A DNA stretch of 64,000 nucleotides from an uncultured virus (IMG/VR IMGVR_UViG_3300015371_000019) (IMGVR_UViG_3300015371_000019), one strand, 5' to 3'; numbered from the stretch's first letter, positions 29,504 through 45,798 are shown. Numbers and translations: made by a program. The notes: a model not told the origin generated them from the letters alone.

Positions 29504-31768
29504 CTACTCTTTCAATCCTTTGAGAGTTTTCACGACCATGTTGAACCACTCCGGGTCGCCCTTGGCAAAGGCGGCCGCATCCTCCCAAAGCAGCTCCACC
29601 CCGACGGAGATGACCTCCGGGTAGTGCCCGTCAGGATAGATTCGGCCCGCATACGACCGCTGCCACCACTTATCCTTCTTGCCCTGGATCTTCTTCCCGA
29701 AACCTGGCAGGGCTTTCTTCACCTCACCCACCGTCCGCTTCTCGAAGAGTCGGTTCTGATCTTGCATGATCCGGGGAACCTTGTAGGAGATGTGATGTCC
29801 AAACTCGTGGGCGAAGGTCTTCGGCCACTCCGACTGTGGTTGGGAGAGGTTCATCTTCAACCGGTCGAGTGTACTATTGTACGTCCCGGCGGCGGACATC
29901 TTATTGTCAATCTCGATGGAGAGCCTACCGAGGGCTTCGAGCTCCTTCTTCGTGTAGGCGGACTTGGGCATCATCTTCAGTATATCCACCGCCGCATCCG
30001 TCGTCCGCTTCTCTAACACCCCGTAGCCTCCAATGGACTTAGAGAAGACGTTAGTCACCTCATGGGTCCCAAGGTTGTCGTCCTCGAACAATAACTTGCG
30101 CATGTCGGCCATCGGAATCTTGGACGCCTCGATCTTGTGGTACAGTTCAGCCGACTTTTTGTACAGCTCCTCCCTCTGATTGATGAGCGTTTTTCTCTCC
30201 GCCTCTAAGGCTATGAGATGGGCCGGATCGCCGGCCTGGGTAAAGTCCCGGTTGAGCTCCTTTAACAACTCCTTCCTGATCTGGTTGATCCTAACGGTTG
30301 TGGCAACGTTCTGCTTACTCACCGCCGCCCGCTCTGCCTCCAGAACACCGACCGGGGAGGTGGCTTGTGTCTCCAAGACATGCTGCCGATACTCCTCCGC
30401 CGTGGCGAACTTGGTCGTCCCGGTTCCCGGCTCGACCGTAGGCTCCGGTGTCTTCGCTGTCGGCTTCGGTGTCGCCGGCTTTGGGGGCTCTATTGGGGGC
30501 AAAGGGGCGGGACCCGGTGCCGGGCCCGGTGCCGGGCCCGGTGACGGGGCGATCTTGATTTGGCCTGCCCTCAACCGGGTTAGGAGCTCACCCGGAGCCA
30601 TAGACCCTTGCCCTAGGGACCCGGCTTTCAGCTGGATCCTCAACGTCTGATCGGCCACCTGGATACCCGCTTGTTGGAAGATCTCTTTCGCCTCCTTGAA
30701 GGTGACGCCTTGGGACCCTAGCCCGCGGACGACCGAGACGACGGAATGTCCCTCCAACATCGGGAGCTCGACCTCTCCCTTGAACGGTTTGCCTTTGCTT
30801 CTCGCCGACTTGCCCTTCCCGGCTTTGATTCTCTTAGCAGCCGCCTTCTTCTGGGCCTTAGTCGGCGTCGAAGGGATCCAGGAGCAACGACAATTCGGGT
30901 GCTTGGGAATCATCCCTCTCGCCTCTTCCACCGTGAAGACCTGGCCCTCTAGGGCGGCACAGATGGAGCAAACCCGGTCGTCGCCGGCCGTGCTCCACTC
31001 CGCCATCACCCCTAGCTCGTCCACTCCGAGCTCGTCGAAGGCGTCGAGCTGACCCTCCGCATGGGCCGAGATGACCTCCGTCCTCGCAATGAGTAGGGCC
31101 CTCGCCTTCGTCAAGGACTTGATCTGGTCGGACATCTCTTTGGCGATTGCGGCGGGTCCCTTCCCGTCAATGAGTCCCTGGGCGAGGATCCGGTTCATCT
31201 TCTGGGCCGCCGTCGCCGACACTCCCTTCAGATCCTCCAAGGCCCGGGTAGCGATCAGCTGAACCTTGGACTTGGCCTCCGGTTGGCCGAAGGCAGTCTT
31301 GAGGAAGGACTCCTTCGTCTGCCCTCCGACCGCCCCGCCCCTCGAGGCGGAATCGTAGGCATTGATCAATCCCCGCTTGTAGGCCGACTCTATGTACTTC
31401 CCGGTCCAGGGACCGTGGGACATGGAGGGAGGATTGGAGATAACGTTGGCTTCGATCTGCTGCTTGAGCCACTCGTTGAAGGCATCCAACTTCCCGGCGT
31501 CGGTCCTGAACTGGAAGTCCCGTTGGTGAAGAGTCAGCCGGGTCGTAAACGTCTTGAGCCCTAGCTGGTCGTCCTCCTCCAAGAACTTCCATACGGCATC
31601 GGAGAGCTTCCTGAACCTCCGGTTGATCTCGGCCTCGAAGGCCCGGCGGAGCTGAGTAGTCCTCGTCGGGTCCATCCTCACCGGGTTGGCATTCCTCACC
31701 AGGAGGTTATGCGTAGGCAACCGGTGGTAATGCCCGTTGTGGGCCCGATATCTTACGGAGTAGAGCAT
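29504..31768 (-). CDS. MuF/SPP1 gp7-like head morphogenesis protein with C-terminal HExxH domain
   Basis: IARTE, WSTAGDDRVC..C, P.HPNCRC; Pro linker; AHEFGH and EVIS.G.E. Confidence 0.85.
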   Translation of the reverse strand: MLYSVRYRAHNGHYHRLPTHNLLVRNANPVRMDPTRTTQLRRAFEAEINRRFRKLSDAVWKFLEEDDQLGLKTFTTRLTLHQRDFQFRTDAGKLDAFNEWLKQQIEANVISNPPSMSHGPWTGKYIESAYKRGLINAYDSASRGGAVGGQTKESFLKTAFGQPEAKSKVQLIATRALEDLKGVSATAAQKMNRILAQGLIDGKGPAAIAKEMSDQIKSLTKARALLIARTEVISAHAEGQLDAFDELGVDELGVMAEWSTAGDDRVCSICAALEGQVFTVEEARGMIPKHPNCRCSWIPSTPTKAQKKAAAKRIKAGKGKSARSKGKPFKGEVELPMLEGHSVVSVVRGLGSQGVTFKEAKEIFQQAGIQVADQTLRIQLKAGSLGQGSMAPGELLTRLRAGQIKIAPSPGPAPGPAPGPAPLPPIEPPKPATPKPTAKTPEPTVEPGTGTTKFATAEEYRQHVLETQATSPVGVLEAERAAVSKQNVATTVRINQIRKELLKELNRDFTQAGDPAHLIALEAERKTLINQREELYKKSAELYHKIEASKIPMADMRKLLFEDDNLGTHEVTNVFSKSIGGYGVLEKRTTDAAVDILKMMPKSAYTKKELEALGRLSIEIDNKMSAAGTYNSTLDRLKMNLSQPQSEWPKTFAHEFGHHISYKVPRIMQDQNRLFEKRTVGEVKKALPGFGKKIQGKKDKWWQRSYAGRIYPDGHYPEVISVGVELLWEDAAAFAKGDPEWFNMVVKTLKGLKE

Positions 31769-31769
31769 A

Positions 31770-33266
31770 CTACTCCCGGGCCGCGGGCGCCCCCGCCCCG
31801 TTCCGGCCGGCCGCGGCCGTTGCTTGGGCTTGAGCGGCCGCGGCTTGTTGGTCCCGGCGATCCTGTAAGGCCGCCGCTACCCCGTCCTCCTCTGCAAGCC
31901 CGCTCGTCACCTCGTCGATGATGGACCGGGCTTCCTCCTCCTCGAGCCCTAGGATCAACGTCAGGTAGTGGAACGGCGGGACGATAATATCAGACCCCGA
32001 TTGGATGTACTTGGAGAGGGCGTCGGACTTCTTCTGGGCGACCTCGGCCTTGTCCTTATCCCCGAGGGTGTTGAGATCCGGCCAGTCCACACATAGCTCC
32101 TCCGGCTCAGGAAGGACACCGAGGGCGACGAGCCGGTCGATGGTCGGCACAATGACAAAGGGATTCAAATACTTGCATCGCCTCCGGTTCAACCGTCGGT
32201 TCCAGCTCTTGGAATCCTGCTCGGAAGCCAGCTGTGCCGCCTCCGACCCGATGAATACCCGCCACGGAACGCCCATCGCCACGGCAATGAGCTTGAGTTG
32301 GACTTCCAGGTGCGGGCCGGGATCGGCGACCTGAGTAGTCAAAGACTTGGCACTCATCCCGACGGTGGCAAGATAACGCTGGAGGCCGTTCATGTAGGAC
32401 TCGAGTTGTTGCTTGGTCGCGGCCGCATCGAACTCCACCGTCTCGTCCACGCCCGGGGAGGATTCCAACGAGATGCCAGGGAACCCGCCTTTCCAGAACA
32501 TCTCCCCGCTCCCGCCGGCGATCTTCTTGATGTCGAGGAGGCGGTTGAACACGACCTCCATCCTCGGCACTCCTATGATCTCGCTACACATCCGGTTGTC
32601 GGCCACGTGAATCACCCGGGACCAATGGATCAACTGTTTGCTGGTGATAGACGAGGCCCCGGTGCTCGTAATGTCCTCGAAGGTGATTTCGTAGAGGGTA
32701 GGGTGGCCGAACCGGGGGCTGGCCGTGTTCGTCTCCAACTCTTTGATGCAAACCAGCGACTCGTCGAAGGCCCGGAGGAAGAGGAGCTCCTGTTCCCGGC
32801 TTCCTTCCGTCTTCTCCCCGGTCAGCGGGTTGACGCCCGGTGCGGGTTGATCCAGCCGGGCACCGTCCCCTAGGCCGAGGAGGAGGATCCCGTAGTGGCC
32901 GATCCCGCTCAGGACATCTACCCGCTCCAACATGGAGAGAACCTGGAGTTGATCCTCCAGCTCGCCCCACGCTTCCTCAAACTCGGTTTCGGTTTCATCC
33001 TCCGTCTCATACACATCCGGGGTGTCCGACCAGCTCTCTTCCGGGAGGAGGGTGACGACCCGCTTGGCGATATCACCCCGGAGGAAAGCCCGTTTGAACT
33101 CGAGGGTATCGACACACTCCGGGTGTCCGCATTCCTGGTCAATGTTCCGGCGAGGATCCAATTGCCTCCGGAGCCAGAGCTGCCGCTCCATCAGGAAATT
33201 GGTTGTCAGTAGTCTATTGAACACCGGCATTCCCGCCGCCGATTTAGTCGTAGAAACTGTTTTCAC
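31770..33266 (-). CDS. Portal protein (DUF1073-like)
   Basis: IHWSRVIH, GSGEMFW, G.P.R...G, position between terminase and MuF; GTG start inferred. Confidence 0.85.
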   Translation of the reverse strand: MKTVSTTKSAAGMPVFNRLLTTNFLMERQLWLRRQLDPRRNIDQECGHPECVDTLEFKRAFLRGDIAKRVVTLLPEESWSDTPDVYETEDETETEFEEAWGELEDQLQVLSMLERVDVLSGIGHYGILLLGLGDGARLDQPAPGVNPLTGEKTEGSREQELLFLRAFDESLVCIKELETNTASPRFGHPTLYEITFEDITSTGASSITSKQLIHWSRVIHVADNRMCSEIIGVPRMEVVFNRLLDIKKIAGGSGEMFWKGGFPGISLESSPGVDETVEFDAAATKQQLESYMNGLQRYLATVGMSAKSLTTQVADPGPHLEVQLKLIAVAMGVPWRVFIGSEAAQLASEQDSKSWNRRLNRRRCKYLNPFVIVPTIDRLVALGVLPEPEELCVDWPDLNTLGDKDKAEVAQKKSDALSKYIQSGSDIIVPPFHYLTLILGLEEEEARSIIDEVTSGLAEEDGVAAALQDRRDQQAAAAQAQATAAAGRNGAGAPAARE

Positions 33267-33314
33267 GGTTCCTACTTTACGGCCCCACCGGGACGGAAAG
33301 CAAAAGGAAAAGAA

Positions 33315-33443
33315 TGCCACCGCCGTTCCCCTCCACTAGGAGGGAGCCAGGCCAGGATAGTCCGTAGTAGCCGCTCCGTCGAACTTAGTCGTATGACACG
33401 ACGGAGCAACCAACCTATCCTGGGGATTGGCCCGGCGGTGGCA
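33315..33443 (-). ncRNA. Candidate structured RNA A (three-way junction)
   Basis: 11-bp closing stem, long interrupted hairpin, CCCTCC-N4-GGAGGG hairpin; intergenic. Confidence 0.6.
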
Positions 33444-33446
33444 AAG

Positions 33447-33785
33447 TTAGAATTGGTTGCCCTCCTTCGTCGCCGCATCGTTCCTACGAGCCTCCAAGGC
33501 TTCGGCCCGCCTCTTCTCCCGCCACCGAGCCACCCGGAGGAGGATGAAGTAGCCCGTCAAGTCGAGCTCGGTGTCCTCGTTAAAGGTGAGGTTCCCCTGC
33601 ATGATCCGGTTCAGCTTGTCGTCGATGCGGACCTTAATGCCTTCCACCGCATCGAGCTTGGACATGATCCTCGTCGGGTCGAGGGCCGAGTTCCCGTAGG
33701 CCTCGTTCTTCTTGATGAGCATGTCCGCGATCTCGTCGCAGGCCTTCCTAATGTCGATTGCCGATTGTTGTAGTTGTGTGTTCAT
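33447..33785 (-). CDS. DUF1599-like nucleotide-modification-associated protein
   Basis: KNEAYGNS, VRIDDKLNRI, EDT..DL.GY. Confidence 0.75.
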   Translation of the reverse strand: MNTQLQQSAIDIRKACDEIADMLIKKNEAYGNSALDPTRIMSKLDAVEGIKVRIDDKLNRIMQGNLTFNEDTELDLTGYFILLRVARWREKRRAEALEARRNDAATKEGNQF

Positions 33786-33786
33786 G

Positions 33787-34068
33787 TTATCCCTTTCCGT
33801 ATCGTTCAGCTAAGTAGGTTGCAAACTCCTTTAACCCTTTCCGTATCTTCCAAAAAGCCACCCGCTCCAACTGGTGGACCCGTGACTTGTCAATACCCAT
33901 TATCTCCGCGACCTCCTTCATAGTCCGGATCGCCATCATCCCGCGGGGCTGGCTGAAGTTCTGCCCATGTGGTTCGTCGGGTAGCCGTTTGATCTTCCGT
34001 CGGAGGTTGGCGGCGGTCCGCTCCGGGTAGTAGTATCTTTTCTTGACTTTCGGTTTCGGATCTTCCAT
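33787..34068 (-). CDS. Sigma70 region-4-like HTH protein (2)
   Basis: TMKEVAEIMGIDKSRVHQLERVAFWKIR. Confidence 0.7.
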   Translation of the reverse strand: MEDPKPKVKKRYYYPERTAANLRRKIKRLPDEPHGQNFSQPRGMMAIRTMKEVAEIMGIDKSRVHQLERVAFWKIRKGLKEFATYLAERYGKG

Positions 34069-34250
34069 AGGAGGTTGCGTTCGATCTGTTGGACCCGTTG
34101 CCGGGTGATCCCTAACACTTCCGCCACCTCGTCGTGGGTTAGGATCGTCACCATCGCGAGGGCCTTTGTACTGTGGGCCCGGAGCTCTCCGGGTTGGAGC
34201 CGCCACCTCTCCCGCCGGCGTTGTAGGGCCCGTTGTACATGAGGCTTCAT
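33936..34250 (-). CDS. Sigma70 region-4-like HTH protein (1)
   Basis: THDEVAEVLGITRQRVQQIERNLLWKIR. Confidence 0.65.
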   Translation of the reverse strand: MKPHVQRALQRRRERWRLQPGELRAHSTKALAMVTILTHDEVAEVLGITRQRVQQIERNLLWKIRNRKSRKDTTTRSGPPPTSDGRSNGYPTNHMGRTSASPAG

Positions 34251-34262
34251 TTCCTAATTATC

Positions 34263-34384
34263 TCCCGCCGCCCACTCCAATCGGAGGCCGGGGCTGGGAG
34301 ACACCCGCTCGAGGAGGAAACAAACGACGGAGTAGTAAACCCCTCGAGGCGGAAAACCAGCCTGATCCGGTAAAGGCGGCGGGA
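34263..34384 (-). ncRNA. Candidate structured RNA B (same architecture as A)
   Basis: 10-bp closing stem, long interrupted hairpin, CTCC-N4-GGAG hairpin; intergenic. Confidence 0.6.
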
Positions 34385-34390
34385 AAGTGT

Positions 34391-35212
34391 TCATACTGCT
34401 ATCGGCGCCTTGATCGCCGGGTGCGGATCGTAGTCGGAGATGGTGAAGTCCGTGAGGGAGAAGCCATCTATGTTCTTCACCCGCGGATTCAGGACGACCC
34501 GCGGGAGAGGACGGGGCTCACGAGTCAGCTGCTCCGCCACCTGAGCGAAATGGTTCTTGTAGATGTGGAGGTCGCCGAAGCTAATGATCAGCTCGCCGGC
34601 CTTCAGCCCGGTAACCTGCGCCAGCATCATTGTCAGGAAGGCATAGGAGGCGATGTTGAACGGGAGGCCGAGGAACGAGTCGATACTGCGGGCGTAGAGG
34701 TGGAGGTTCAGGAAACCCTCACTCACCTGACATTGCCAAAGGGTGTGGCAGGGAGGCAGCTTCATCCTGGGCACGTCCACTGGGTTCCAGGCGGAGACGA
34801 TGTGGCGCCGGCTGAACGGGTTCTTCACGAGGTCGGAAACGAGGTTGGCTATCTGGTCGATCTCGTTTCGCTCATACATGAAGTGTTCGCCCATGTTGTC
34901 GAACTTCTCCCAATGTCTCCACTGCTTGCCATACACCGGGCCCAGGTCCCCGTCTTTGTCGGCCCACTCGTCCCAAATCGTGACACCGAAGTCGTGGAGG
35001 AACTTGATGTTGGTGTCGCCCCGGAGGAACCACAGCAGCTCCACGATGATGGACTTGGTGTGGATCTTCTTAGTCGTGAGCAACGGGAAGCCGTCCTGTA
35101 GGTGGTGGCGGAATTGGTAACCGAACACGGCCCGCGTTCCCACGCCGGTCCGGTCTTCCCGGTCCTTCCCGTGGGCGATTACGTGATGGAGTAGGTCTAG
35201 GTATTGTTTCAT
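34391..35212 (-). CDS. thyA: Thymidylate synthase
   Basis: [42 protein letters not shown]. Confidence 0.97.
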
Positions 35213-35412
35213 ATAGGTTTGACTACTGGGGCCGCCTCGAACAGGCAGCAACTAAAATCCGCCGCGGTGACGAGGTGGGAATCGCCGATGTCTCCTTCGA
35301 TTACGACCGCCTTGTTGTCCGACGTGGCGCCGACGGCGGTGATCCTAAGACACCGGCCTACGTCGCCCTCCCGGGAAGGCTTCCAATGTTTACATCCACA
35401 GCAAGAGTTCAT
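35209..35412 (-). CDS. Small Cys-rich protein
   Basis: C..C.HW...C...F.C..F; coupled overlaps. Confidence 0.55.
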
Positions 35413-35690
35413 AGTTCCTCCGACCGCGTGCCGTTGACGATTTGTTGTGGCCCGAAGTCGGCCGACTTCACCTCCGGCTGGACCCGCTTCTCCGCCCGCT
35501 CGACGGCCCGGGCCCTCTTGTCCACTTGGACGAAGTCCCGCTCAATCTCCCGGAGGAGAGCCAACCGCCTCTGCAGCTCGGTCACTTCCCTTTGCTTGGC
35601 AGCTATCATCTCACAACAAACCGCAATCGCCCGGTCCAGGCGATCAACCTTCGGACCCGGCCCATCTTGTTCATCAGTCGGTGTATTCAT
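35409..35690 (-). CDS. Hypothetical coiled-coil protein
   Basis: AGGAGG SD; coupled overlap. Confidence 0.55.
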   Translation of the reverse strand: MNTPTDEQDGPGPKVDRLDRAIAVCCEMIAAKQREVTELQRRLALLREIERDFVQVDKRARAVERAEKRVQPEVKSADFGPQQIVNGTRSEEL

Positions 35691-35706
35691 ACCCCATTAT
35701 CTCCTC

Positions 35707-37182
35707 CTACCATAAGGCCCCGGCTTTCTTCCTCTTCTTGGCTAGGAAGTTGAAGGCCCCGCTCGAGGCGTCCACTTGGTCCGAGTATTTGGAATTGGGG
35801 AAGAAGCGGAGCTCCTCCACGTAGTCCCGGGTCCAATCCCGGTTGAGGACCCAGACGTTCCCCGACCCGACTTGGGAGGCGAAGGGATAAGCCCGGCTGA
35901 CCTTATCTCCGGTGGGATGGAAGGCATGGACCCGGTAACCTTTGAGGTTCTTCGTGGTGGACTCCCCGGATTCCTTTCCGCCGGATCCTCCCTCTATTTC
36001 GAGGACGACCGGGACCTCGTCGCCATCCATCTCGGCGGCAGACCGGATCTCTTCTTCTCTCCGGGTTGCTCCCCACCTATCCCGAATGACGTCTAGAATA
36101 CCCCATTGGCCGGCGGAGTCCTCGGCCATCAGGAGGCCGACGGTGTACTTCCCCGCCCCTTCCGTCCCCGCCTTATCCCAGCTGCGGACGGTGCGGACTA
36201 TCCTACGAGGGGGCTGGTCGCAGAACTGAAACTTGTTTACCATAAACATGGCCCCGGCCAAGGGAACCGGGGTCTGGAGGATTTGGGAGCTGTAACCGTA
36301 GATTCCTAGTTCCGACTCGAGGGCTTTTAAGGACTCCCGGTCTAGGCGGATCGGGTCGAATAGGCCGTCCACATACCTGTCCCGTAACTCCGGCGGGGAG
36401 ACGACGACAGCGTCCGGATCATTCCCCAATTCCCCCGGTAGGCATATATGCCGGATTCCTACTCCTTTGCTCTTTTCAAGTTGTTCACCCGAGGGGTCGG
36501 CCTGGTGCAGACGTTGTTGTACCAGGATCGTTACTGTCACCTTCTTGTCAATCTTTCTGGTCGGCAGTGTCGTTGTCATCCACCGATTAGCGACCTTCAA
36601 GTCCGCCTCGCTGTAGGCCTGCTCCGGGTTGATCGGGTCGTCCACAATTAAGAAGTGGCCGTGGAGGCCGGCGGCCGCCCCGCCTATCCCTACCGACAGT
36701 CGGGATCCTCCCTTAGTGTTAATGTAAAGGCCTTTCGTATTTTGATCTTCGCGGAGTCCGATGCCGGGGAAACACTTCTTGTACTTTTCGGATTCCACAA
36801 GATCCCGTGAGCGGATCGCATCCCGGAGGGCGAGGACTTGGCCGTAGGAGGCGCAAATGAACTTGGCGTCCGGCTTGCGGGTCCAAGCCCAAGCGGGGAA
36901 CATTTGGGAGAAGATGGTGGACTTGGTAGAGGCCGGGGAGATGTTGACTATGAGGTCGTATTCCTTTGGCTCCCCTTTGAAAACCCGCTCGGCCACTTGT
37001 TGGAGCTCGTTGGCCAAGTATTCGATGTGCCAATTGAGGATCGGCGGGTCCTGGATGATCGTGTCCCAGAACTCCTTGATGAACTCGAAGAAGGACTCCC
37101 GGCAGATGGACGCCACCATCTTGGTTTCGGTCCACCGGGCCGGGATGGGAGGTTGCTTTTGCTGCCAAGGAGCTAGGGGCAT
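35707..37182 (-). CDS. terL: Terminase large subunit
   Basis: NISPASTKST, IVDDP, QRLH, SWD.A, FP...SDQVDA. Confidence 0.93.
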   Translation of the reverse strand: MPLAPWQQKQPPIPARWTETKMVASICRESFFEFIKEFWDTIIQDPPILNWHIEYLANELQQVAERVFKGEPKEYDLIVNISPASTKSTIFSQMFPAWAWTRKPDAKFICASYGQVLALRDAIRSRDLVESEKYKKCFPGIGLREDQNTKGLYINTKGGSRLSVGIGGAAAGLHGHFLIVDDPINPEQAYSEADLKVANRWMTTTLPTRKIDKKVTVTILVQQRLHQADPSGEQLEKSKGVGIRHICLPGELGNDPDAVVVSPPELRDRYVDGLFDPIRLDRESLKALESELGIYGYSSQILQTPVPLAGAMFMVNKFQFCDQPPRRIVRTVRSWDKAGTEGAGKYTVGLLMAEDSAGQWGILDVIRDRWGATRREEEIRSAAEMDGDEVPVVLEIEGGSGGKESGESTTKNLKGYRVHAFHPTGDKVSRAYPFASQVGSGNVWVLNRDWTRDYVEELRFFPNSKYSDQVDASSGAFNFLAKKRKKAGALW

Positions 37183-37188
37183 TCGTCT

Positions 37189-38043
37189 TTACTCATTAAC
37201 CGCATTGTCTTCGCCGTTTTCCCCGTTCCCGTCCGGTTCGCCGTTGGTAAGCTGTTGAGGGGTGACGTCGATGATTGGGGACGAAGACGCCTCCTTCTCC
37301 TTTTTCCTCCGGATCGCCTCGAGGATCCGCTTCCGGGTTTCCAGATCCAGGTCGAGGTCCTCCAAGCCGAAGGAAGGATCCAGCCCAGTGTGGTTGACGG
37401 TCATCCTCTCGCTATATCCCCGGTCCGCATTGATCGTCCGGTTGACGAACAGGACGGCCGTGGGATGGCGCTCGGCCACTAAGTCCATGAGAGCGTGCTC
37501 GAAGAAGTTCTTTTTATGCCACTCGACCTCTTCGACCAACCGCTTGAAGCCCGTATCCTCCCGCCTCCACCCGTTGAGCTGGTTGTAGGACACCCCGGTG
37601 ATCCGGCAGGCCTCGCTCAGGTTGTAGTTGGAGTAGATCAATGCGTGGATGAAGAGCTCCTGGCGGATCTTCCGGCCGAGGGCTTTCATCTCCCGGTGGA
37701 CGTTGGCTTGGTCCTCGAGGGTTTGCCTCTTCTTCGGGTCCGCCCATTTGGAGATCCGCTTCCAAACCTTCTGCGCCTCCGGGGTGAGCTGACGGAAGAC
37801 ATACTCCCCGAAGGTTTCCGCTTGGCCGGCCACGAACTCTTCGGCCTTGGTCCGGGCCACCTTGAAGGCCGGGGTATTCCACCAGCTCTTGAACGTATCC
37901 AGGTGGACGCCGAGGAGCTGGGCTTGCTTGGTCATCTCCTTTTCCCCGTGGCATAACCAGAAGAAGTACTCGAGGACCCGCTCCAGGTTGTAGCGGCTCA
38001 TCCCCAATCTGCTTTGCATATGTCGGAACTTCATGATCCCCAA
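37189..38043 (-). CDS. Terminase small subunit-like HTH protein
   Basis: NLSEACRITGVSYNQLNGWRRED..F, RGY.E; directly upstream of terL; start uncertain. Confidence 0.65.
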   Translation of the reverse strand: MGIMKFRHMQSRLGMSRYNLERVLEYFFWLCHGEKEMTKQAQLLGVHLDTFKSWWNTPAFKVARTKAEEFVAGQAETFGEYVFRQLTPEAQKVWKRISKWADPKKRQTLEDQANVHREMKALGRKIRQELFIHALIYSNYNLSEACRITGVSYNQLNGWRREDTGFKRLVEEVEWHKKNFFEHALMDLVAERHPTAVLFVNRTINADRGYSERMTVNHTGLDPSFGLEDLDLDLETRKRILEAIRRKKEKEASSSPIIDVTPQQLTNGEPDGNGENGEDNAVNE

Positions 38044-38072
38044 AATGGAGGACCACCGGGTTCCCGTAAAGC

Positions 38073-38109
38073 AAAAAAAACACCCGGCGGGAGGGTTCCC
38101 ACCGGGCGT
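38073..38109 (-). terminator. Intrinsic terminator
   Basis: ACGCCCGGTGGGA ACCC TCCCGCCGGGTGT then T run on - strand. Confidence 0.85.
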
Positions 38110-38131
38110 CTGCTTTTAGCCCAACCGCGCT

Positions 38132-38977
38132 TTACACTTCCACCGCTTCGTCGTCCTCTTCCTTCTCGTCCGCGGGTTCCGCCTCTTCCTTCGCAGGCTT
38201 GGCGGCGGGTTTGACCTTGGGCTTCTTCGCCGGGGCGGGTTCGTCCCCCTCGTCGTCGTCCCCGTCGTCGTCCGCTTCCGCCTTCGCGGGCTTGGACTTC
38301 CCGGCCGCCTTCGCGTCCTTGGCGCCCTTGCCCTTCTTGTCGGCTTTCTCTTCCTTGGCGAAGAGGGCCGGGTCCGGTCGGAGCTGCGCGAGCTCTTTCT
38401 TGCTCACGTCCGCGGGTTCCTGGGCTTTGGACTTGCCCTTGTGGAGCTGGATCCGGATCGTGTTATCGGCGACCTGGATTTTCGCTTTGTCGAACACGTA
38501 GCGGACTTCCTTGAAGGACCACCCGGCCACGCCCATGGCCCGGATCACTCCGGTGACGGGGTGCCCCAGGAATCCACCGAGGCCGCCGAGCTTCGGGCCC
38601 TCTTCCTTCTCCGACTTACCGTTCTTCTCTTCTTTGTTCTTAGCCATAACTGCCTTCCTTTCTTCTGTTCGTTGTGCGAGGAACGCGATCAAACCCTCCC
38701 GGCCGAGCCGTTTGAGGATCGGGACCTCGCTGTTTGGACTGATGTTTACACTCGCCGGGTCCGCCTGGAACGTTACGTCCGTCTCCAATGTCTTGAAGGT
38801 GTACGTTGTGTTCCGGAGCGGGATCACCGCCGCCCGGCTATCGTTTAGGAACCAAACGAAGTGCTCGGTGTTTCCCATACGGATGATGTCCCCGACCCGC
38901 AGCCGGACGCCGAACTCTGCCGGGTCCCTGGAACGGCGGACTTCCTTCAGGACTTCCTTGCTCTTCATCTTGCTCAT
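38132..38977 (-). CDS. Hypothetical protein with shared ~47-aa domain and K/A/D/E low-complexity tail
   Basis: GHPVTGVIRAMG..VADNTIRIQL; possible internal start at 38647 with SD. Confidence 0.65.
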   Translation of the reverse strand: MSKMKSKEVLKEVRRSRDPAEFGVRLRVGDIIRMGNTEHFVWFLNDSRAAVIPLRNTTYTFKTLETDVTFQADPASVNISPNSEVPILKRLGREGLIAFLAQRTEERKAVMAKNKEEKNGKSEKEEGPKLGGLGGFLGHPVTGVIRAMGVAGWSFKEVRYVFDKAKIQVADNTIRIQLHKGKSKAQEPADVSKKELAQLRPDPALFAKEEKADKKGKGAKDAKAAGKSKPAKAEADDDGDDDEGDEPAPAKKPKVKPAAKPAKEEAEPADEKEEDDEAVEV

Positions 38978-39262
38978 AAACTAATTTGTGCTTGGTGACC
39001 CTACGAGGGCCACCGGGTTTGCGAACCGGAGCGACTCTTCTCCGTGATATAGCGGGTACTAACCCGCCCCGGTTCTGCTCGGACGATCCATCCGGACCGC
39101 CCTTACTTGCAACCAATATCACCCACCTAGGATTTAACACCACATCTTTTTTGACATTTCAGCTCTTTTTTTCCTGGCCCACCTATGGTGATATCCCGGT
39201 CGCCGCGCCACCCACGAATGGTGGAAATGATATTCCAGCATTAGACTTTGGAATCTTTTGCA

Positions 39263-39970
39263 TTAGAGTTTGAAACCTTTAAGAACCAAATCACCGAGCA
39301 TCGGGGCCGTCGCCGGGTTGTATTCCGTCGGATCCTCCACCCCGGCCAAGTGGAACGCCTCCCGCCGCTCGATGCAAGTCCCGCACCGTCCGCATTGGAG
39401 GGTCTGCCCGGTGTAACAGGAATACGTTTCCTTCCAATCCACCTTCAAGGCGATCCCGGCCTTCAGGATGTCCGCCTTCGACAAGTTCACGAACGGAGTC
39501 TCCACCCGGACCTTCTTCCAGTCGCAGAGGGCGAGGGCCCCGTTCAGGGCGCCCACGAACTCCGGGCGGCAATCGGGATAGATGGCATGATCCCCGTAGT
39601 GCGCAGCGTAGGCCACCGACTCGATGTCGTTAGCAAGGGCGTGGCCGGCCGCGATCGACAGCATGATCATATTCCGATTGGGGACGACCGTCGCCTTCAT
39701 GGACTCCTCCGAGTAGTGCCCGGCCGGCACCGGGACAGAGGCGTCAGTCTGGGAGGAGCCGGGGAGGAGGTGTTTGAGGAAGGACATCTCCACGATCTCA
39801 TGCCTCACCCCAAGCTCGGTGCAATGCCGGGCGGCATACTCCAACTCAATCCCGTGGCGCTGACCGTAGTTGAAGGAGATCGCCCGGACCACTCCGGAGC
39901 ACTGGCGCATCTCCCGGAGTAATACCGCTGAGTCCATCCCGCCGGAAACCAACACTAGCGTTTTTTTCAT
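39263..39970 (-). CDS. queC: 7-cyano-7-deazaguanine synthase
   Basis: SGGMDS, YGQRH, VPNRN, YPDCRPEF, SCY..CGRCGTC. Confidence 0.96.
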   Translation of the reverse strand: MKKTLVLVSGGMDSAVLLREMRQCSGVVRAISFNYGQRHGIELEYAARHCTELGVRHEIVEMSFLKHLLPGSSQTDASVPVPAGHYSEESMKATVVPNRNMIMLSIAAGHALANDIESVAYAAHYGDHAIYPDCRPEFVGALNGALALCDWKKVRVETPFVNLSKADILKAGIALKVDWKETYSCYTGQTLQCGRCGTCIERREAFHLAGVEDPTEYNPATAPMLGDLVLKGFKL

Positions 39971-40575
39971 TCTGTGATCCTTTCTATTTGTTCTATTATC
40001 TCCGCGGGCTTCATTACCCGGAGAAAATCCTCGAGCCGGAGGCACCCGTAGTAGAGCCTCCACCACCTCTTTCCTTTCCCCTCGTTCACCCGCACCTTGA
40101 AGAGAACGAAGGTGGGACAGATCTTCAGGAGGTTGAACCGCTTGGCCGTCGGCCAGTCGATGTAAACCACGGACTCCCGAAAGTCCCGTTGGTGAATGAG
40201 GAGCCAGCCAAGTGAACCCGCATCCGTCATGGAGTCCACCGTTTGCTTCAACGTCTTCTCCCATTTGCGTTGGGTATCCGTCGGCCGGGCGTCGAGCAGG
40301 TCGAGCGGATGACCGTGGGAGTCTCCCCGCTTGAGCTCGATGGTGAACATCTTGAGCAACGGCCGGCCGATCGGGTCCATTGCCGCCACGTCCCCGTAGG
40401 AGTTGGCTGTCTTCAATCCTTTCCTCGCCCGCCAGGTTGCCCGGCCGCCGGACTGGGATGACCTCCAGAAGATATCGTCCCTCACTTCCTCCTCCGGCCA
40501 CCCTCCTAGGCTCCACCAGCGGGATAGTGTCCGGCAGATCTTCCGTTCAAACTGGGATCCTTTTTTGGCTCTCAT
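39967..40575 (-). CDS. Holliday junction resolvase-like PD-(D/E)xK nuclease
   Basis: KGSQFER, SGG, GDV, IELK. Confidence 0.7.
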   Translation of the reverse strand: MRAKKGSQFERKICRTLSRWWSLGGWPEEEVRDDIFWRSSQSGGRATWRARKGLKTANSYGDVAAMDPIGRPLLKMFTIELKRGDSHGHPLDLLDARPTDTQRKWEKTLKQTVDSMTDAGSLGWLLIHQRDFRESVVYIDWPTAKRFNLLKICPTFVLFKVRVNEGKGKRWWRLYYGCLRLEDFLRVMKPAEIIEQIERITE

Positions 40576-41414
40576 ACCCGTATCCGTCCCTCCTTGATCT
40601 TTAGTTTCTTGGCCAGCCGGATCCATTTGTCCTCCGACCAATCCCGATCGTAGAGCTTGATCTTTGGACAACCCTCGGCCGGGAGCTCCACCAACTGGCG
40701 ATTCCGTTGGATGATATTCCTACCCTCTGGACTACGGATCTTGTTGAGCTTGGCCCCGGAGCTGATCTGGCCCCGGATATACTTCAATGCCGTGTTCTCC
40801 CCGATACCCGGAATGCCGGGCACCCCGTCCGTCTTACACCCGGCGATCGCCTTCACGCGGGCCCAGGCCCGTGGCGGAATCTCATACAGGTTCTCAAAGG
40901 CCCTTTTTGTCATGGTGCCCGACATGTGCAGGATGACCCGCTCGGAAAGGCATTGGTAGAGGTCCTTGTCGGAGGAAACCAAAACGAGGAACAGCTTCTC
41001 GTCCCCGTCGGGACCCTCCCTCAACCCGTCGTAGGTGAAGGCAATCTTGGCCATCAAGTCGTCGCTCTCCATCCCCGGCGACCGGAACACGTTCACGAAC
41101 CCGGCCCGTCCTAGTTGCTTCCATAGTTCGTCTATCACCCTCCTCACCCTGATCTTGTCCTGGATCACCTCCGAGTCAGTCTCGCCCCGGCGATAGGCTT
41201 TGTACTTAGGAAAGATTTGCCGGCGGAAGAGAACCGGGGAGTCAAAACAAAAGGCTAAGTGATCCGTCTGGAAGCTCGTCCGAAGGGAGGTCACCGTCCG
41301 CATGAAACAGGTAACCAGCCCCTCGTTCAAATACCAACCCGGTCCGCTCTTTCGTAGGACACCCCACAGCCGAAAGCACAGGTTGGGACAATCTAATACT
41401 AGCCACGTCTTCAT
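40572..41414 (-). CDS. 5'-3' exonuclease / flap endonuclease (T4 RNase H-like)
   Basis: FD, YKA.R, ESDD, SSDKDL.Q, G...DGVPGIPGIGE.TA. Confidence 0.9.
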   Translation of the reverse strand: MKTWLVLDCPNLCFRLWGVLRKSGPGWYLNEGLVTCFMRTVTSLRTSFQTDHLAFCFDSPVLFRRQIFPKYKAYRRGETDSEVIQDKIRVRRVIDELWKQLGRAGFVNVFRSPGMESDDLMAKIAFTYDGLREGPDGDEKLFLVLVSSDKDLYQCLSERVILHMSGTMTKRAFENLYEIPPRAWARVKAIAGCKTDGVPGIPGIGENTALKYIRGQISSGAKLNKIRSPEGRNIIQRNRQLVELPAEGCPKIKLYDRDWSEDKWIRLAKKLKIKEGRIRV

Positions 41415-42016
41415 TGTTTGATCTTTCCGTGGGTCCACTCGTGTTTCCCCACCAAGTAGAGGGCCAACGACTTGACATAGTCCGGGCATTCCTTAGTGGA
41501 TAGGGCTAGGACCCCACCACCATACTCCATTTCCTCCGCCTTCATGTTGTCATAGGCCTTGTTGGAGATCAGCTTGAACTTGTACTGGTGATAGATGTAA
41601 CGGTAAGCCAACACCAAGTCCAAGCTCGCCGCGACCTCTTTGTTCTTCACCACCTGTTCCTGATCCTTAGTGCTGATCTCCGATAAGTCCCGCATGAGGA
41701 CCCGGGCGGCATGCTCCAAGTCAATCCCCTGTTTGATACAGGACCGGATCAGCTTCCGTTCGGCGTCGGTGAGGCGCTTCCCCTTCCGACTGATCCGTTG
41801 CTTGGGTTGGTAGTCCACGATCCGGTTGCGTTCGTTGTACACATACTCGTCGAGCTTCTTCTTGATCGCATACGGGTTACGGCCAATCTTAGCGGCCAAC
41901 CGGACGATATCCACCCCCTCGAAGTGCATGTCCAACATCCGATCCCCCTCCCGCCTCTTCCACGGCTCCTCGGCTTGTGGGTTACGGACGCTCTCCTCCG
42001 GTAATAGTTTGCTCAT
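41411..42016 (-). CDS. Hypothetical protein (HTH/Myb-like repeats)
   Basis: W...E...L..., LAAKIGRNPYAI; coupled overlaps. Confidence 0.5.
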   Translation of the reverse strand: MSKLLPEESVRNPQAEEPWKRREGDRMLDMHFEGVDIVRLAAKIGRNPYAIKKKLDEYVYNERNRIVDYQPKQRISRKGKRLTDAERKLIRSCIKQGIDLEHAARVLMRDLSEISTKDQEQVVKNKEVAASLDLVLAYRYIYHQYKFKLISNKAYDNMKAEEMEYGGGVLALSTKECPDYVKSLALYLVGKHEWTHGKIKQ

Positions 42017-42315
42017 GTGGTTTGATACGAAGCCGTTTTGAAATCGGTGCACAGGAAATGGGGTGGGAGTCCGCCGAGCACGCTTAAGTAAATGAGGCCG
42101 CCCCGGTTTAGCTCCTCCAACTCCTCCGGGGTGGGCTTCCAAGCCACGACAACGAACGTATGGCCGTCCAGGTTCCCTTGTTGGATGACTCCGACGAAGG
42201 CCTCCGCCGCCGAGCATTGGGAAGGATCCAAGTCCGGCGGCGGGTTGAATACTTGGTTCGACTCTGGAAAGGGTGAACAGATCATACAACGGTTGAGTCG
42301 GAGGGAAGTCTCCAT
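42013..42315 (-). CDS. Hypothetical phage protein
   Basis: WKPTPEEL..LN.GG motif; start uncertain. Confidence 0.55.
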   Translation of the reverse strand: METSLRLNRCMICSPFPESNQVFNPPPDLDPSQCSAAEAFVGVIQQGNLDGHTFVVVAWKPTPEELEELNRGGLIYLSVLGGLPPHFLCTDFKTASYQTT

Positions 42316-42465
42316 TCATCCTGAGGCGGGACGGGAAATGGTTCCCAAACTGAACTGCCCTCATACAACCCATCCAACTTCCACAGGGTCCCGTCGTCAC
42401 ACACGGCGAGAATGAAATACTTTCCCACCGGATCGATGCTGCTAACTACCTGTATCACTTTGCGC

Positions 42466-43548
42466 TTATGCATAACGAGCCTTTCGTTTGACCAAGCACT
42501 CCTCCTCAATTTGTTGCCAGGTCTCCCCGACCACTTCCCGTAGGCGAGTCTCCAGCCCCTTGTCTTCGATATACGCTACAACCCGGCCTCTGGGCCCCTT
42601 TATCCGCAAATCTCGCGCGACAACTACCCCGTCGTCGTTTGACCAACGTCCCTCCCGCACGAGGAAGTCCACACAGGACCCGACATCGTCGATGCCGAGT
42701 CCGTAGTAGATGGGAAGGATGACCTGACGGTCCCGCCCTACCTTCCCGGTGAGCCTGTTCTTCTTCACTTCCACCAAGCACTGTACCCCAACCACCCGTT
42801 TGCGGCCATGGCGGAGTCTCTCCAACTTCTTCCCGACCGCCGACCAGATCTCTAGGTGGGCATAGAACCGTAGGGCCCGACCGCCCGACCGGGTTTTGGG
42901 ATTGAACCCGTAGCCTAGAGAGTCCCGGGTCTGCCCGATGATGATGAGGATACTCCCTAGGTCCCGGATGCCCGCTAGGGACTCGCGGATGTGCTCGCTA
43001 TGATACTTCGCCTTCCCGTCCCCGAAGGATCCCTTGGCCTCCTCACCCTCCTTCTCCGCCTTCCGTTGCTGCTTGAACTTCTTCTTGGAGGCGGCCGAGG
43101 TCAGGCTGTCCTGTGAGTCGAGCACGTAGATGAACGGCCGGCCTTTGGCAATCCTCCGGTCCAGGTTGTTATAGAAGGTTTCAATGGAGGTGCTGTTACT
43201 CCAAGCACCGTGTTTGTCCAACGTCGGAGGCTCGAGCCGTCGGGCAACCTCCTTGCCGAAGTAATGCTCAATGTCCATTAGGGCCCCGCCCTCGACGTCA
43301 TCGAAGACTAGATCGTAGTTGTCGAAGGCGGGGTTCTGACAAGCCTCCGCAAAGCAGGACAAGGACAGCCATGTCTTCCCGCTGGCCGAGTCCCCGACCA
43401 AGTAGTAGTAACCTCCCTTGAGGAAGGCGACGGCCGGGTTGTCGGCGCAGGCCAGGTTCAATAGGGTGGACCCGCTGCTCACCCCGTTCTTGAGGGACGG
43501 GGTGAGCTTCTTACGACGGGCCAGTAACAGTTTGCGGGAATCAATCAT
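42466..43548 (-). CDS. RecA/UvsX-like recombinase
   Basis: SSGS..LN, GDSASGKT, D.EG, VLDS, GGRALRFYA, KNR. Confidence 0.88.
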   Translation of the reverse strand: MIDSRKLLLARRKKLTPSLKNGVSSGSTLLNLACADNPAVAFLKGGYYYLVGDSASGKTWLSLSCFAEACQNPAFDNYDLVFDDVEGGALMDIEHYFGKEVARRLEPPTLDKHGAWSNSTSIETFYNNLDRRIAKGRPFIYVLDSQDSLTSAASKKKFKQQRKAEKEGEEAKGSFGDGKAKYHSEHIRESLAGIRDLGSILIIIGQTRDSLGYGFNPKTRSGGRALRFYAHLEIWSAVGKKLERLRHGRKRVVGVQCLVEVKKNRLTGKVGRDRQVILPIYYGLGIDDVGSCVDFLVREGRWSNDDGVVVARDLRIKGPRGRVVAYIEDKGLETRLREVVGETWQQIEEECLVKRKARYA

Positions 43549-44749
43549 CGTCGTCGTCCCCGTTGACTTCGGCCTTTACCTTCTTCTTCTTGGGTGCCGG
43601 CTCGTCGTCGTCATCATCCGAGTCCTCGACCCGCTTTTTCTTCGGGGCCGGCTCATCATCATCGTCGTCCTCGTCCTCGTCCTCGTCCTTAGACTTCTTG
43701 CCCTTGGGCTTGTCATCCTCGTCGAAGTCATCCCAGTTCTCGTCCTCACCTTTGGCTTTCTTCTTGCCCTTCGGGGCCGGCTCGTCGTCGTCGTCATCGT
43801 CGGGTGGCGTCTCGTCATCCTCCACCCGCTTTTTCTTAGCCTTAGGAGCAGGCTCGTCATCGTCGTCATCGTCCACTTCCACCCGAGCCTTCTTCTTGGG
43901 TTTGTCGTCCCCGTCATCGTCGTCATCATCCTCGTCGGAGTCCGCCGGAGTCCGTTTGCCCTTCTTGCGGGCGTCTTCAACCTCGTCGTCCTCTTCCTTG
44001 TCGTCCTTCTCCTCGGCCGATTCCAGGAACCGTTCCTTCAGGACGTCGTATTCCTCCATCTTCAGGAGCTCATCCAAGTTGAACACCTGGTCGAGGAACT
44101 CGTTATCGTAGTCTTCCTTCCGGGTTTTGAAGTCGATCGTCTCCGCCTCCACGAAGGACCGACCGCCGAAGGACTTCTCCGCAAACCCGACCTTGAGGGT
44201 GAGCCCACCTTCCAGCCGATAGAACAAGTCCCACTCGTCCTCCTCGTCCGAGTCCCTAATCCGGGCGTCGAGCAGCCGGCCGAAGAGGTGGTAGGAGATG
44301 TCGAACAACTGGATGCCCTTGTCTGGCTCCTTGAGGTTACGGATGTTGAAGAGCTGGCGCTCCCGCGGGGAGATGTCCTTGATCATAGCCTCGTTCTCGG
44401 CCGCGTCGTCCCGCATGAGGCGTTGGCGGTGTTCGCAGATGGGGCAGGGCTTCTTCCTCGTCATCCGGGGGCACAGGTAGGCGTTCTGATCCGCCCCGAC
44501 CCGGCCGTGAAGGTGGTAAGTCCGCTCGTAGTGGAGCGAACCCTCTTGGGCGAACGGATTGTGTTTCCCGACCCGGTAAGGGAGGACATCCAACAAGTAG
44601 ATGCCAACCTTCGGCCGGAACAATGTGGCCCCTTGTGGTAGTTTGAGGTAGGTGGCTGAAAAGCCCATCCCTTGTTCCTTCTTCTTCGCCCGATCGCGGC
44701 CTGACGTGTACTTGAGGCGCCGCTCCTCCCGCTCTTGCGTTCTAGACAT
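43541..44749 (-). CDS. Single-stranded DNA-binding protein (T4 gp32-like) with very long acidic tail
   Basis: H...CP...CPICE Zn motif; repeated DDDDEPAPK units. Confidence 0.75.
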   Translation of the reverse strand: MSRTQEREERRLKYTSGRDRAKKKEQGMGFSATYLKLPQGATLFRPKVGIYLLDVLPYRVGKHNPFAQEGSLHYERTYHLHGRVGADQNAYLCPRMTRKKPCPICEHRQRLMRDDAAENEAMIKDISPRERQLFNIRNLKEPDKGIQLFDISYHLFGRLLDARIRDSDEEDEWDLFYRLEGGLTLKVGFAEKSFGGRSFVEAETIDFKTRKEDYDNEFLDQVFNLDELLKMEEYDVLKERFLESAEEKDDKEEDDEVEDARKKGKRTPADSDEDDDDDDGDDKPKKKARVEVDDDDDDEPAPKAKKKRVEDDETPPDDDDDDEPAPKGKKKAKGEDENWDDFDEDDKPKGKKSKDEDEDEDDDDDEPAPKKKRVEDSDDDDDEPAPKKKKVKAEVNGDDDDD

Positions 44750-44762
44750 AATGTCCTTTTGT

Positions 44763-45792: not shown

Positions 45793-45798
45793 ATAGCT

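What the first reader, a model, noticed from the sequence alone, without database searches (positions are those of the whole stretch)
33315..34384. Two related ~125-nt three-way-junction RNAs flanking a DUF1599 + sigma-region-4 cassette
Seen in element A (33315-33443): closing stem TGCCACCGCCG/CGGCGGTGGCA; long arm CCAGGATAG/CTATCCTGG plus GCTCCGTCG/CGACGGAGC, extended by G-U pairs only on the - strand; short arm CCCTCC-N4-GGAGGG; then a U-rich tract. Seen in element B (34263-34384): closing stem TCCCGCCGCC/GGCGGCGGGA; long arm CCGG, GGCTGG/CCAGCC, CTCGAGG/CCTCGAG; short arm CTCC-N4-GGAG. Both have the same helix order, a CCGCC closing stem, the CTCC/GGAG arm and CTCCGTCG in the long arm. Both start within 7 nt of a stop codon, while the long-arm sequences differ. 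Inference: an unannotated phage ncRNA family next to terminase and portal (packaging RNA, decoy or antitoxin RNA, processing signal), or ssDNA hairpin recombination sites bounding a cassette.
Basis: partly seen in the sequence, partly recalled or inferred. Interest (0 to 1): 0.8.

Follow-up and report, generated by a model that had tools for sequence, protein, structure and literature searches.

The report
Branched RNA stem-loops between phage genes
Two very stable, branched stem-loops sit in gene gaps of a soil phage's terminase-to-portal region; one is kept by matching base changes in the only diverged relative, so it is probably a signal within the messenger RNA.

Summary
Element A (33315-33443) and element B (34263-34384) fold far better than shuffles (z -7.1 and -4.5 on the - strand, which carries the genes). 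In a 64-kb scan, A is the most stable 130-nt fold on that strand.

Each starts 3-6 nt after a stop codon: A after a phrog_1485 gene, B after thyA.

A is real and under selection. The one diverged relative found (L004, about 78% nt identity in the flanks) has it at the same place. Of 48 pairs, 9 changed on both sides. Wobble pairs occur on the sense strand only.

B has no homologue anywhere I searched. Its kinship to A is not shown: reciprocal model scores are 15.7-19.8 bits (E about 0.3), so only the architecture is shared.

No Rfam family and no tRNA matches. No further copy turned up in 1.43 Mb of related loci or in 5 near-complete relatives.

The two elements do not bound a mobile unit. L004 keeps A and the enclosed genes but lacks thyA and B. 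A natural 586-nt deletion is not bounded by either element.

Best reading (about 0.42): cis-acting intercistronic mRNA structures (3'-end stabiliser, processing site or leaky terminator) closing accessory-gene blocks in a hyperplastic TerL-portal island. No transcript data exist. Interest is moderate to low.

The parts
33315..33443 (-). Element A, a 129-nt three-way-junction fold. It has an 11-bp closing stem plus a 5-bp extension, a long arm of 9+14+3 bp, and a 6-bp hairpin with a 4-nt loop.
   Evidence: Fold -78.4 kcal/mol, z -7.1. Top 130-nt window on the - strand. Orthologue at L004:4150-4266 scores 54.9 bits, E 1.4e-8. Of 48 pairs, 9 are compensatory.
33297..33314 (-). U-rich tract directly after A's closing stem (12 U in 18 nt).
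   Evidence: Read. It is not conserved in L004.
33286..33303 (-). Composite motif TTGCTTT-N4-CCGGTG between A and the portal start.
   Evidence: Only two matches in 64 kb against 0.03 expected. The other follows the plain terminator upstream of TerS.
34263..34384 (-). Element B, a 122-nt three-way-junction fold. It has an 11-bp closing stem, a long arm of 4+6+5+8 bp, and a 4-bp hairpin with a 4-nt loop.
   Evidence: Fold -64.5 kcal/mol, z -4.5. No homologue found. Present in contigs of runs X1, X3 and X4.
34254..34394 (-). 46-aa open frame lying over B. Its ATG overlaps the thyA stop (ATGA). This is a rival reading of B.
   Evidence: No homologue in the 5.8-billion-cluster protein search and no Pfam hit.
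34391..35251 (-). Thymidylate synthase gene. The likely ATG is at 35212. B follows its stop codon.
   Evidence: Pfam Thymidylat_synt E 2.5e-112; phrog_160.
33936..34250 (-). First sigma-70 region 4-like HTH ORF. Its tail overlaps the next ORF.
   Evidence: Sigma70_r4 E 8.2e-7 and 4e-6; translation.
33787..34068 (-). Second sigma-70 region 4-like HTH ORF.
   Evidence: Sigma70_r4 E 1.2e-6; translation.
33447..33785 (-). A follows its stop codon.
   Evidence: phrog_1485 E 2.9e-16; no Pfam hit; Atlas lead only.
31770..33266 (-). Portal gene. The start is GTG 33266 (inferred) or ATG 33230. It lies 48 nt downstream of A.
   Evidence: Phage_portal_3 E 1.1e-24; phrog_146 E 6e-59. An in-frame N-terminal extension with a 6-nt indel is shared with L004.
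35707..37182 (-). Large terminase gene, the left border of the variable island.
   Evidence: phrog_38 E 6.5e-74. Similarity to L004 stops 28 nt after its stop codon.
38054..38111 (-). Comparator: a plain intrinsic terminator (15-bp stem plus U8), followed by the same TTGCTTT...CCGGTG motif, upstream of TerS.

Best explanation
A, and probably B, are cis-acting structures in the phage's long - strand messenger RNA. Each folds as soon as the ribosome leaves the stop codon of an accessory gene: thyA for B, the phrog_1485 gene for A. Each closes the 3' end of a gene block that lies inside a hyperplastic island between the large terminase and portal genes.

The most likely action is at the RNA's ends. 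The fold would block 3'-to-5' exonucleases, or be cut by a double-strand-specific nuclease of the RNase III type, so that the accessory block and the downstream head genes get separate half-lives. In A, with its U-rich tail, the fold may also stop part of the transcription before the portal gene.

Shown: the folds, their placement, the conservation of A's pairing, and the strand bias.

Inferred: that the folded molecule is RNA, that it acts in cis, and every step of the mechanism.
For: 1. Stability far beyond shuffles, and beyond the rest of the 64 kb. A neighbouring gap in the same island is ordinary.

2. Both elements fill gene gaps on the coding strand, starting 3 and 6 nt after a stop codon.

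3. A' in L004 sits at the same place, 10 nt after the stop of the homologous gene and about 60 nt before the portal start. Only 70 of 100 aligned letters are identical, yet 96.6% of cells are paired. Of 48 pairs, 9 changed on both sides, spread over 5 of 6 helices. Slid-partner controls give 0-2, and 1 of 500 shuffles reaches the observed value.

4. Within those helices, 3 one-sided changes and 1 invariant pair are G-U on the sense strand. None of the 3 broken cells would be a wobble pair on the other strand. Sense folds are equal to or better than antisense folds by 0.3-9.3 kcal/mol.

5. No conserved reading frame crosses A. The 68-aa frame in the window has no counterpart of 45 aa or more in L004.

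6. A is followed by a U-rich tract and then by TTGCTTT...CCGGTG. That motif otherwise occurs only after the plain terminator upstream of TerS (2 matches against 0.03 expected). A therefore sits where a terminator sits elsewhere.

7. The TerL-portal junction is an insertion hot spot. Among 66 of 78 related loci that hold both genes, the gap ranges from 0 to 5253 nt and is 138 nt or less in 24. I inspected 9 strongly folding regions by eye. Three (L032, L022, L010) show plain hairpins with U runs just upstream of the portal gene. This fits a role as the 3' end of an inserted block.
Against: - There are no transcript data at all, so RNA as opposed to single-stranded DNA is inferred only from strand and placement.
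- Covariation rests on two sequences, in an alignment fitted to the model.
- The U-rich tail is present in 1 of 3 elements (A only), so termination cannot be the shared function.
- A 125-nt branched fold is much more than a stabiliser or terminator needs. This phage uses simple hairpins elsewhere.
- An 8-nt unpaired stretch (UACGGACU) is identical in A and A' while the helices around it changed. That hints at sequence-specific recognition rather than a mere roadblock.
- B has no comparator, so selection on it is unproven.
Confidence: 0.42

Rival explanations
1. A and B are small non-coding RNAs acting in trans. They would be made from their own promoters or cut out of the 3' ends of the thyA and phrog_1485 messages. 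Possible roles are a regulator, a decoy or a packaging cofactor.
For: Compact, closed 120-130-nt folds with a terminal stem. A ends with a U-rich tract like a 3'-UTR-derived small RNA. A carries a conserved unpaired 8-mer. The position next to terminase and portal genes is suggestive.
Against: - Both abut the upstream stop codon, so any promoter would lie inside coding sequence.
- The only promoter-like hit in 31000-40000 lies on the opposite strand, inside A, and is within chance (1 found, 2.4 expected).
- Neither B nor A' has a U tract.
- The phage has canonical TerS and TerL, which by established knowledge need no packaging RNA.
- No Rfam family matches.
- The elements are absent from 5 near-complete relatives. 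Core packaging therefore does not depend on them.
Confidence: 0.15
2. A is a cis-regulatory sensor in the portal leader, either a protein-binding operator or a riboswitch-like aptamer. It would set translation or read-through of the portal and head genes. The partner might be one of the adjacent HTH proteins or a metabolite.
For: Three-way junction of aptamer size, 48 nt upstream of the portal start. The unpaired UACGGACU and the GGAACGGCGGUG junction are invariant between A and A', while 9 pairs covary. The short hairpin pairs a Shine-Dalgarno-like purine run (GGAGGG, GAAGGA, GGAG) with a CCUCC-like strand in all three elements.
Against: - No Rfam riboswitch matches.
- The portal's own ribosome site lies outside the fold.
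- Only two sequences exist, so 'invariant' means little.
- B precedes a different gene and lacks the 8-mer.
Confidence: 0.12
3. The elements act at the DNA level as module-boundary sequences at which recombination swaps gene blocks, like the promoter/stem-loop cassettes (PeSLs) of T4-type phages. Alternatively they are single-strand hairpin recombination sites.
For: - Similarity between the window and L004 stops 28 nt past the TerL stop and resumes 11 nt past A's 3' end. A therefore sits exactly at a divergence step.
- The island is hyperplastic across relatives.
- 20 of the 22 letters of A's closing stem are unchanged; the other two form one compensated pair.
- PeSLs are stem-loops at the borders of variable genes (PMC2839356, abstract and section 13 read; PMC4122927, abstract read).
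Against: - There are only two elements, and they share no stretch long enough for homologous exchange. The best common word is 9-10 nt, and model scores are at noise level.
- Compensatory change means pairing is selected, not sequence.
- No recombinase gene lies nearby.
- The 586-nt natural deletion is not bounded by the elements.
- L004 has A' without B.
- No sigma-70-type promoter is part of either element on the - strand.
Confidence: 0.13
4. B alone is not a functional structure. It would be a chance GC-rich palindrome-like spacer, or the coding sequence of a 46-aa protein translationally coupled to thyA through an ATGA overlap.
For: An open frame at 34254-34394 runs from the thyA stop to 3 nt before the next start codon. 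B has no homologue, so no covariation supports it. Its rank in the window scan is eighth, not first.
Against: The peptide has no homologue and no Pfam match. z is -4.5, with 0 of 200 shuffles as stable. The helix order is the same as in A, and 98.6% of cells pair when A is threaded on B's structure; that alignment is fitted, so this is weak.
Confidence: 0.1

Closest known systems
Intercistronic RNase III processing signals of phage T7 early mRNA
   Same: Stable irregular stem-loops in the gene gaps of a long phage polycistronic RNA. In T7, cleavage leaves a 3' hairpin that acts as a stability determinant (PMC3867540, passages read). A's long arm offers 9+14 bp around an internal loop, close to the 22-bp ideal substrate described there.
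   Different: T7 sites are single hairpins of about 60 nt (recalled), not 125-nt three-way junctions. No cleavage data exist here, and the host and its nucleases are unknown.
Intrinsic (Rho-independent) terminators closing phage morons
   Same: The elements stand at the 3' end of accessory genes inserted into a structural operon. A has a GC-rich closing stem followed by a U-rich tract. It is followed by the same motif as the plain terminator upstream of TerS.
   Different: The 'loop' is about 100 nt of branched structure. A' and B lack a U tract.
PeSL promoter/stem-loop cassettes of T4-type phages (Arbiol et al. 2010, PMC2839356; Comeau et al. 2014, PMC4122927)
   Same: Stem-loops in hyperplastic regions, beside variable non-essential genes, at divergence steps between close relatives.
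   Different: PeSLs number about 50 per genome and carry a sigma-70 consensus promoter. They recombine through sequence identity. Here there are two dissimilar elements and no promoter consensus.
phi29 packaging RNA (pRNA)
   Different: No Rfam family matched at any threshold used. That Rfam holds a pRNA model is recalled, not checked. This phage has TerS and TerL. The elements are absent from relatives with the same packaging genes.

Membership tests
Any Rfam 15 family (riboswitches, ribozymes, pRNA, phage motifs) | Covariance-model score at or above the family's gathering score | tested here: not met
   There were 0 matches in the whole window at gathering score. At E<=10 over 33150-34500 there were three rows of 10.6-16.4 bits against cut-offs of 50-100.
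tRNA / tmRNA | Cloverleaf recognised by ARAGORN | tested here: not met
   0 genes in the window.
Intrinsic terminator | GC-rich stem directly followed by a U run | tested here: inconclusive
   A has 12 U in the 18 nt after its closing stem. A' and B have none. The scan tool cannot flag loops longer than 8 nt.
Intrinsic terminator | Transcripts end there | not testable with these tools
   No RNA run was available.
T7-type RNase III processing signal | Intercistronic position in a polycistronic phage RNA | tested here: met
   Both lie in gene gaps on the coding strand. That the RNA is polycistronic is inferred from gene order.
T7-type RNase III processing signal | About two helical turns (22 bp) of duplex, often with an internal loop | tested here: inconclusive
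   A has 9+14 bp in the long arm and 11+5 bp in the closing stem. B has 4+6+5+8 bp. A' has a 10-bp inner helix. The criterion comes from PMC3867540.
T7-type RNase III processing signal | Cleavage by RNase III | not testable with these tools
   This needs an enzyme assay or a comparison of rnc+ and rnc- strains.
PeSL cassette | Stem-loop in a hyperplastic region next to variable genes | tested here: met
PeSL cassette | Sigma-70 consensus promoter as part of the element | tested here: not met
   There is no promoter-like site on the - strand in 31000-40000.
PeSL cassette | Many similar copies that can recombine | tested here: not met
   A's model finds no second copy in the window above noise. 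The joint A+B model finds only A' in 1.43 Mb.
Integron attC site | Adjacent integron integrase | tested here: not met
   No integrase or recombinase family appears among the 12+57 ORFs scanned against PHROGs.
Integron attC site | Conserved core sites at both ends of the hairpin | not tested
   The consensus is known to me only from recall. No tool test was run.
phi29-type pRNA | Packaging motor without terminase subunits; portal-bound RNA ring | tested here: not met
   TerS-like and TerL genes are present. Binding to the portal is not testable here.
Pfam DUF1599 (for the enclosed 112-aa gene) | Pfam model hit at the gathering score | tested here: not met
   No Pfam family at E<=10. The Atlas lists DUF1599 on 10% of members of a nearby cluster, which is a lead only.

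The most novel reading that the evidence does not exclude
A is the founding member of an undescribed class of phage three-way-junction RNA. It would sit at the entry to the head-gene operon and be recognised through its invariant unpaired 8-mer by a phage or host factor, so as to time portal and head expression. Alternatively it is released as a small RNA. B would be a diverged paralogue that came in with thyA.
Probability: 0.2. Interest if true: 0.6.

Novelty: new variant of a known kind. Interest (0 to 1): 0.35.

Why it matters
If the reading is right, it shows how an uncultivated soil phage insulates accessory genes (thymidylate synthase, two sigma-like HTH proteins) that were dropped into the middle of its packaging and head operon. 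The device used is much larger and more elaborate than the simple hairpins the phage uses elsewhere. Such elements could help to mark the borders of inserted gene blocks in metagenomic phage genomes.

The element is confined to one narrow lineage, however, and its action is untested. The general significance is therefore modest unless a specific binding partner or a discrete RNA is found.

Tried and rejected
SEARCHES FOR MORE COPIES OR RELATIVES
- GenBank phages, blastn of 33200-34450: no match.
I scanned 80 of those 120 loci with A's model, and only the window's own contig matched. The other 40 were not scanned.
- A three-anchor pattern found only the window's two near-identical contigs and L004.
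- A protein search with the phrog_1485 gene found only the identical contigs.
It gave no relative between 62% and 100% identity, so close relatives may have been missed.
It gave 3 distant hits in bins labelled with three different phyla, so no host could be named.
- The pattern for B's closing stem gave 6 loci. By eye, 4 are GC-rich, probably coding sequence. The other 2 are one tRNA-Lys gene enclosed by the same 10-mer, in a distant phage. I treat this as chance or analogy.
- thyA relatives in IMG/VR are at most 55% identical, and none carries a B-like element. Of 22 such loci (L294-L315), 14 were searched with B's model and all 22 with the joint model.

OTHER CHECKS
- Expression: no RNA holder listed. 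Only contigs could be laid.
- Earlier notes of this scan: nothing.
- The motif YCCCGGTG alone is too common to mean anything (45 matches).
- z-scores from the window's GC regression are unreliable for low-GC relatives (L069, L070).
- I considered an extended portal start at GTG 33320, inside A. I rejected it because the same frame is stopped after 8 codons in L004.

Full report
CONTEXT

The window is most of the genome of an uncultivated tailed phage from rhizosphere metagenomes (run labels). Nearly all genes are on the - strand. Read along that strand, the order is:
- a replication module and a 7-deazaguanine gene set;
- a TerS-like gene (37189-38043) and TerL (35707-37182);
- a 93-aa ORF;
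- thymidylate synthase (34391-35251);
- element B;
- two sigma-70 region 4-like HTH ORFs;
- a 112-aa phrog_1485 gene (33447-33785);
- element A;
- the portal gene (31770-33266), a MuF-like head protein, then head and tail genes.

It remains a lead from the Atlas only.

THE OBSERVATION

- On the - strand A gives -78.4 kcal/mol (z -7.10) and B gives -64.5 kcal/mol (z -4.49). None of 200 shuffles does as well.
- Among 6388 overlapping 130-nt windows per strand, with energy regressed on GC, A is the strongest on the - strand (z -4.58). B is eighth in that list (z -3.41).
- The neighbouring 196-nt gap between the 93-aa ORF and thyA is ordinary (z -0.69). So strong folding is not a property of every gap in this island.
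- A begins 3 nt after a TAA and B begins 6 nt after a TGA.
- A is followed by UUCUUUUCCUUUUGCUUU.
- Contigs from other runs reproduce A (X1, X2, X3) and B (X1, X3, X4) without a difference. X1 may be the source sample.

ARE A AND B KIN?

This is not shown.
- A covariance model of A (R1) scores B at 15.7 bits, E 0.31, below three chance-looking hits.
- A model of B (R2) scores A at 19.8 bits, E 0.33. This is the best non-self hit in 854 kb but is not significant.
- The shared word CTCCGTCG occurs 9 times in the window against 5.6 expected.
- A can be threaded onto B's structure with 98.6% of cells paired. That alignment is fitted to the model, so it shows only that the helix order and rough helix lengths agree.

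RELATIVES

Portal-based searches returned 80 IMG/VR loci, 80 metagenome loci and 3 genome-contig loci.
- Two contigs are 99.9-100% identical to the window.
- One (L004) is a true diverged relative: 77-78% nt identity in the terminase and portal blocks, TerL 81% and portal 85% aa identity.
- All others have portal identity of 63% or less.

R1 finds one significant match in 686 kb: L004:4150-4266 (54.9 bits, E 1.4e-8). It lies between the homologous phrog_1485-like gene and the portal gene. This element, A', folds to the same plan (-61.4 kcal/mol, z -6.0).

In the model-based alignment of A and A':
- 70 of 100 aligned letters are identical;
- 96.6% of cells are paired;
- of 48 pairs, 9 changed on both sides (in 5 of 6 helices), 3 changed on one side through a wobble pair, 3 are broken in L004, and 7 have a gap;
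- sliding the partners by 1-3 columns gives 0-2 double changes;
- 1 of 500 shuffles reaches the observed value.

With two sequences and a fitted alignment this is not a formal proof. It is hard to explain without selection on pairing.

All wobble pairs lie on the sense strand, and none of the broken cells would be a wobble pair on the other strand. No reading frame of 45 aa or more crosses A', so the 68-aa frame over A in the window is not conserved.

A joint A+B model (R3) recovers A' (35.1 bits). It finds nothing else in 1.43 Mb of loci or in 5 relatives' genomes rated 90-100% complete. No Rfam family and no tRNA matches.

B has no homologue. L004 lacks thyA and B. IMG/VR thyA relatives are at most 55% identical and carry nothing similar. 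The 46-aa frame that covers B has no homologue either.

ARE THE ELEMENTS THE ENDS OF A MOBILE CASSETTE?

The evidence says no.
- L004 keeps the HTH-HTH-phrog_1485 genes and A' without B.
- A near-identical contig (L003/G001) and one contig of run X2 lack 586 nt, about 34020-34605. The lost stretch comprises the 3' quarter of thyA, B, the first HTH ORF and the first codons of the second.
- The joint lies at a few shared letters inside coding sequence, not at either element.
- The full-length form coexists in X2.
- No recombinase is encoded nearby.

WHAT THE SURROUNDINGS SAY

The TerL-portal junction is a hot spot for inserted genes.
- In the 66 of 78 loci that hold both genes, the gap ranges from 0 to 5253 nt. 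It is 138 nt or less in 24 of them.
- Between the window and L004, nucleotide similarity stops 28 nt after the TerL stop and resumes 11 nt after A's 3' end.
- The shared genes inside the island are only 51-55% identical in protein.
- A therefore belongs to the fast-evolving island and marks its right edge.

Downstream of A's U-rich tract lies TTGCTTT-N4-CCGGTG. The only other match in 64 kb (0.03 expected) follows the textbook terminator (15-bp stem, U8) upstream of TerS. So A occupies the place that a plain terminator occupies at the other operon entry.

I looked by eye at 9 strongly folding regions in relatives' islands. Three have plain hairpins with U runs just upstream of the portal gene, and none has an A-type junction.

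MECHANISM

The most economical reading is a cis-acting intercistronic RNA structure. It would close an accessory-gene block and set the fate of the RNA's ends: protection of the upstream message, cleavage by a double-strand-specific nuclease, and partial termination in the case of A.

The nearest precedents are:
- the T7 RNase III signals, whose cleavage leaves stabilising 3' hairpins (PMC3867540, passages read);
- terminators that close morons (established knowledge, recalled);
- at the level of genome architecture, the PeSL stem-loops of T4-type hyperplastic regions (PMC2839356, abstract and section 13; PMC4122927, abstract).

Four things do not fit a mere roadblock:
- the size and branching of the fold;
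- the invariant unpaired UACGGACU;
- the Shine-Dalgarno-like strand sequestered in the short hairpin of all three elements;
- the lack of a U tract in A' and B.

These keep alive a sensor or operator reading and a released small-RNA reading.

VERDICT

The structures are real and undescribed. A is under selection for pairing on the sense strand. The 'two related RNAs flanking a cassette' picture is only partly right. Function is inferred, not shown. The lineage range is very narrow.

Literature searches found no report of a portal-linked structured RNA of this kind. They covered only the held open-access library, and I did not consult supplements.

Noticed in passing
window 38054-38074 and 33286-33303 (- strand): The motif TTGCTTT-N(4-7)-CCGGTG occurs only twice in 64 kb (0.03 expected). 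Each copy lies right after a terminator-like structure and just upstream of TerS or the portal gene. It may be a phage promoter or regulatory site, perhaps for the sigma-like HTH proteins.
   Followed up: partly
window about 34020-34605: A 586-nt deletion variant is present in the near-identical IMG/VR contig (L003/G001) and in one contig of run X2. It removes the 3' part of thyA, element B, the first HTH ORF and the start of the second. The full-length form coexists in X2. The deletion is out of frame for thyA.
   Followed up: yes
window 39263-54495 (- strand): A 7-deazaguanine gene set (QueC-like, QueD-like, QueE-like, GTP cyclohydrolase, TGT/DpdA-like) together with MazG-like and ThyA genes. 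The phage probably modifies its DNA.
   Followed up: no
L287:3001-3131 (same sequence in L292): In a distant phage (TerL about 35% identical), a tRNA-Lys(ttt) plus a small hairpin is enclosed by an 11-bp stem made of the same 10-mer as B's closing stem. The element follows a 488-aa gene downstream of TerL. The layout (closing stem, large arm, small 3' hairpin) echoes A and B. It may be chance, since the 10-mer was itself the search key.
   Followed up: partly
window 50301-50480, 56491-56690, 57941-58080, 38981-39130: Other strongly folding stretches (z -3 to -4.7 in the 130-nt scan). The first lies inside the sliding-clamp gene and folds on both strands.
   Followed up: no
window 33936-34250 versus L004:2940-3218: The first HTH ORF in the window runs about 40 codons past the point where its L004 homologue stops. 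It overlaps the start of the second HTH ORF by 133 nt.
   Followed up: no
loci L004-L081: The TerL-portal junction is a hyperplastic insertion site in this phage group. The gap is 0-5253 nt in 66 loci.
   Followed up: partly
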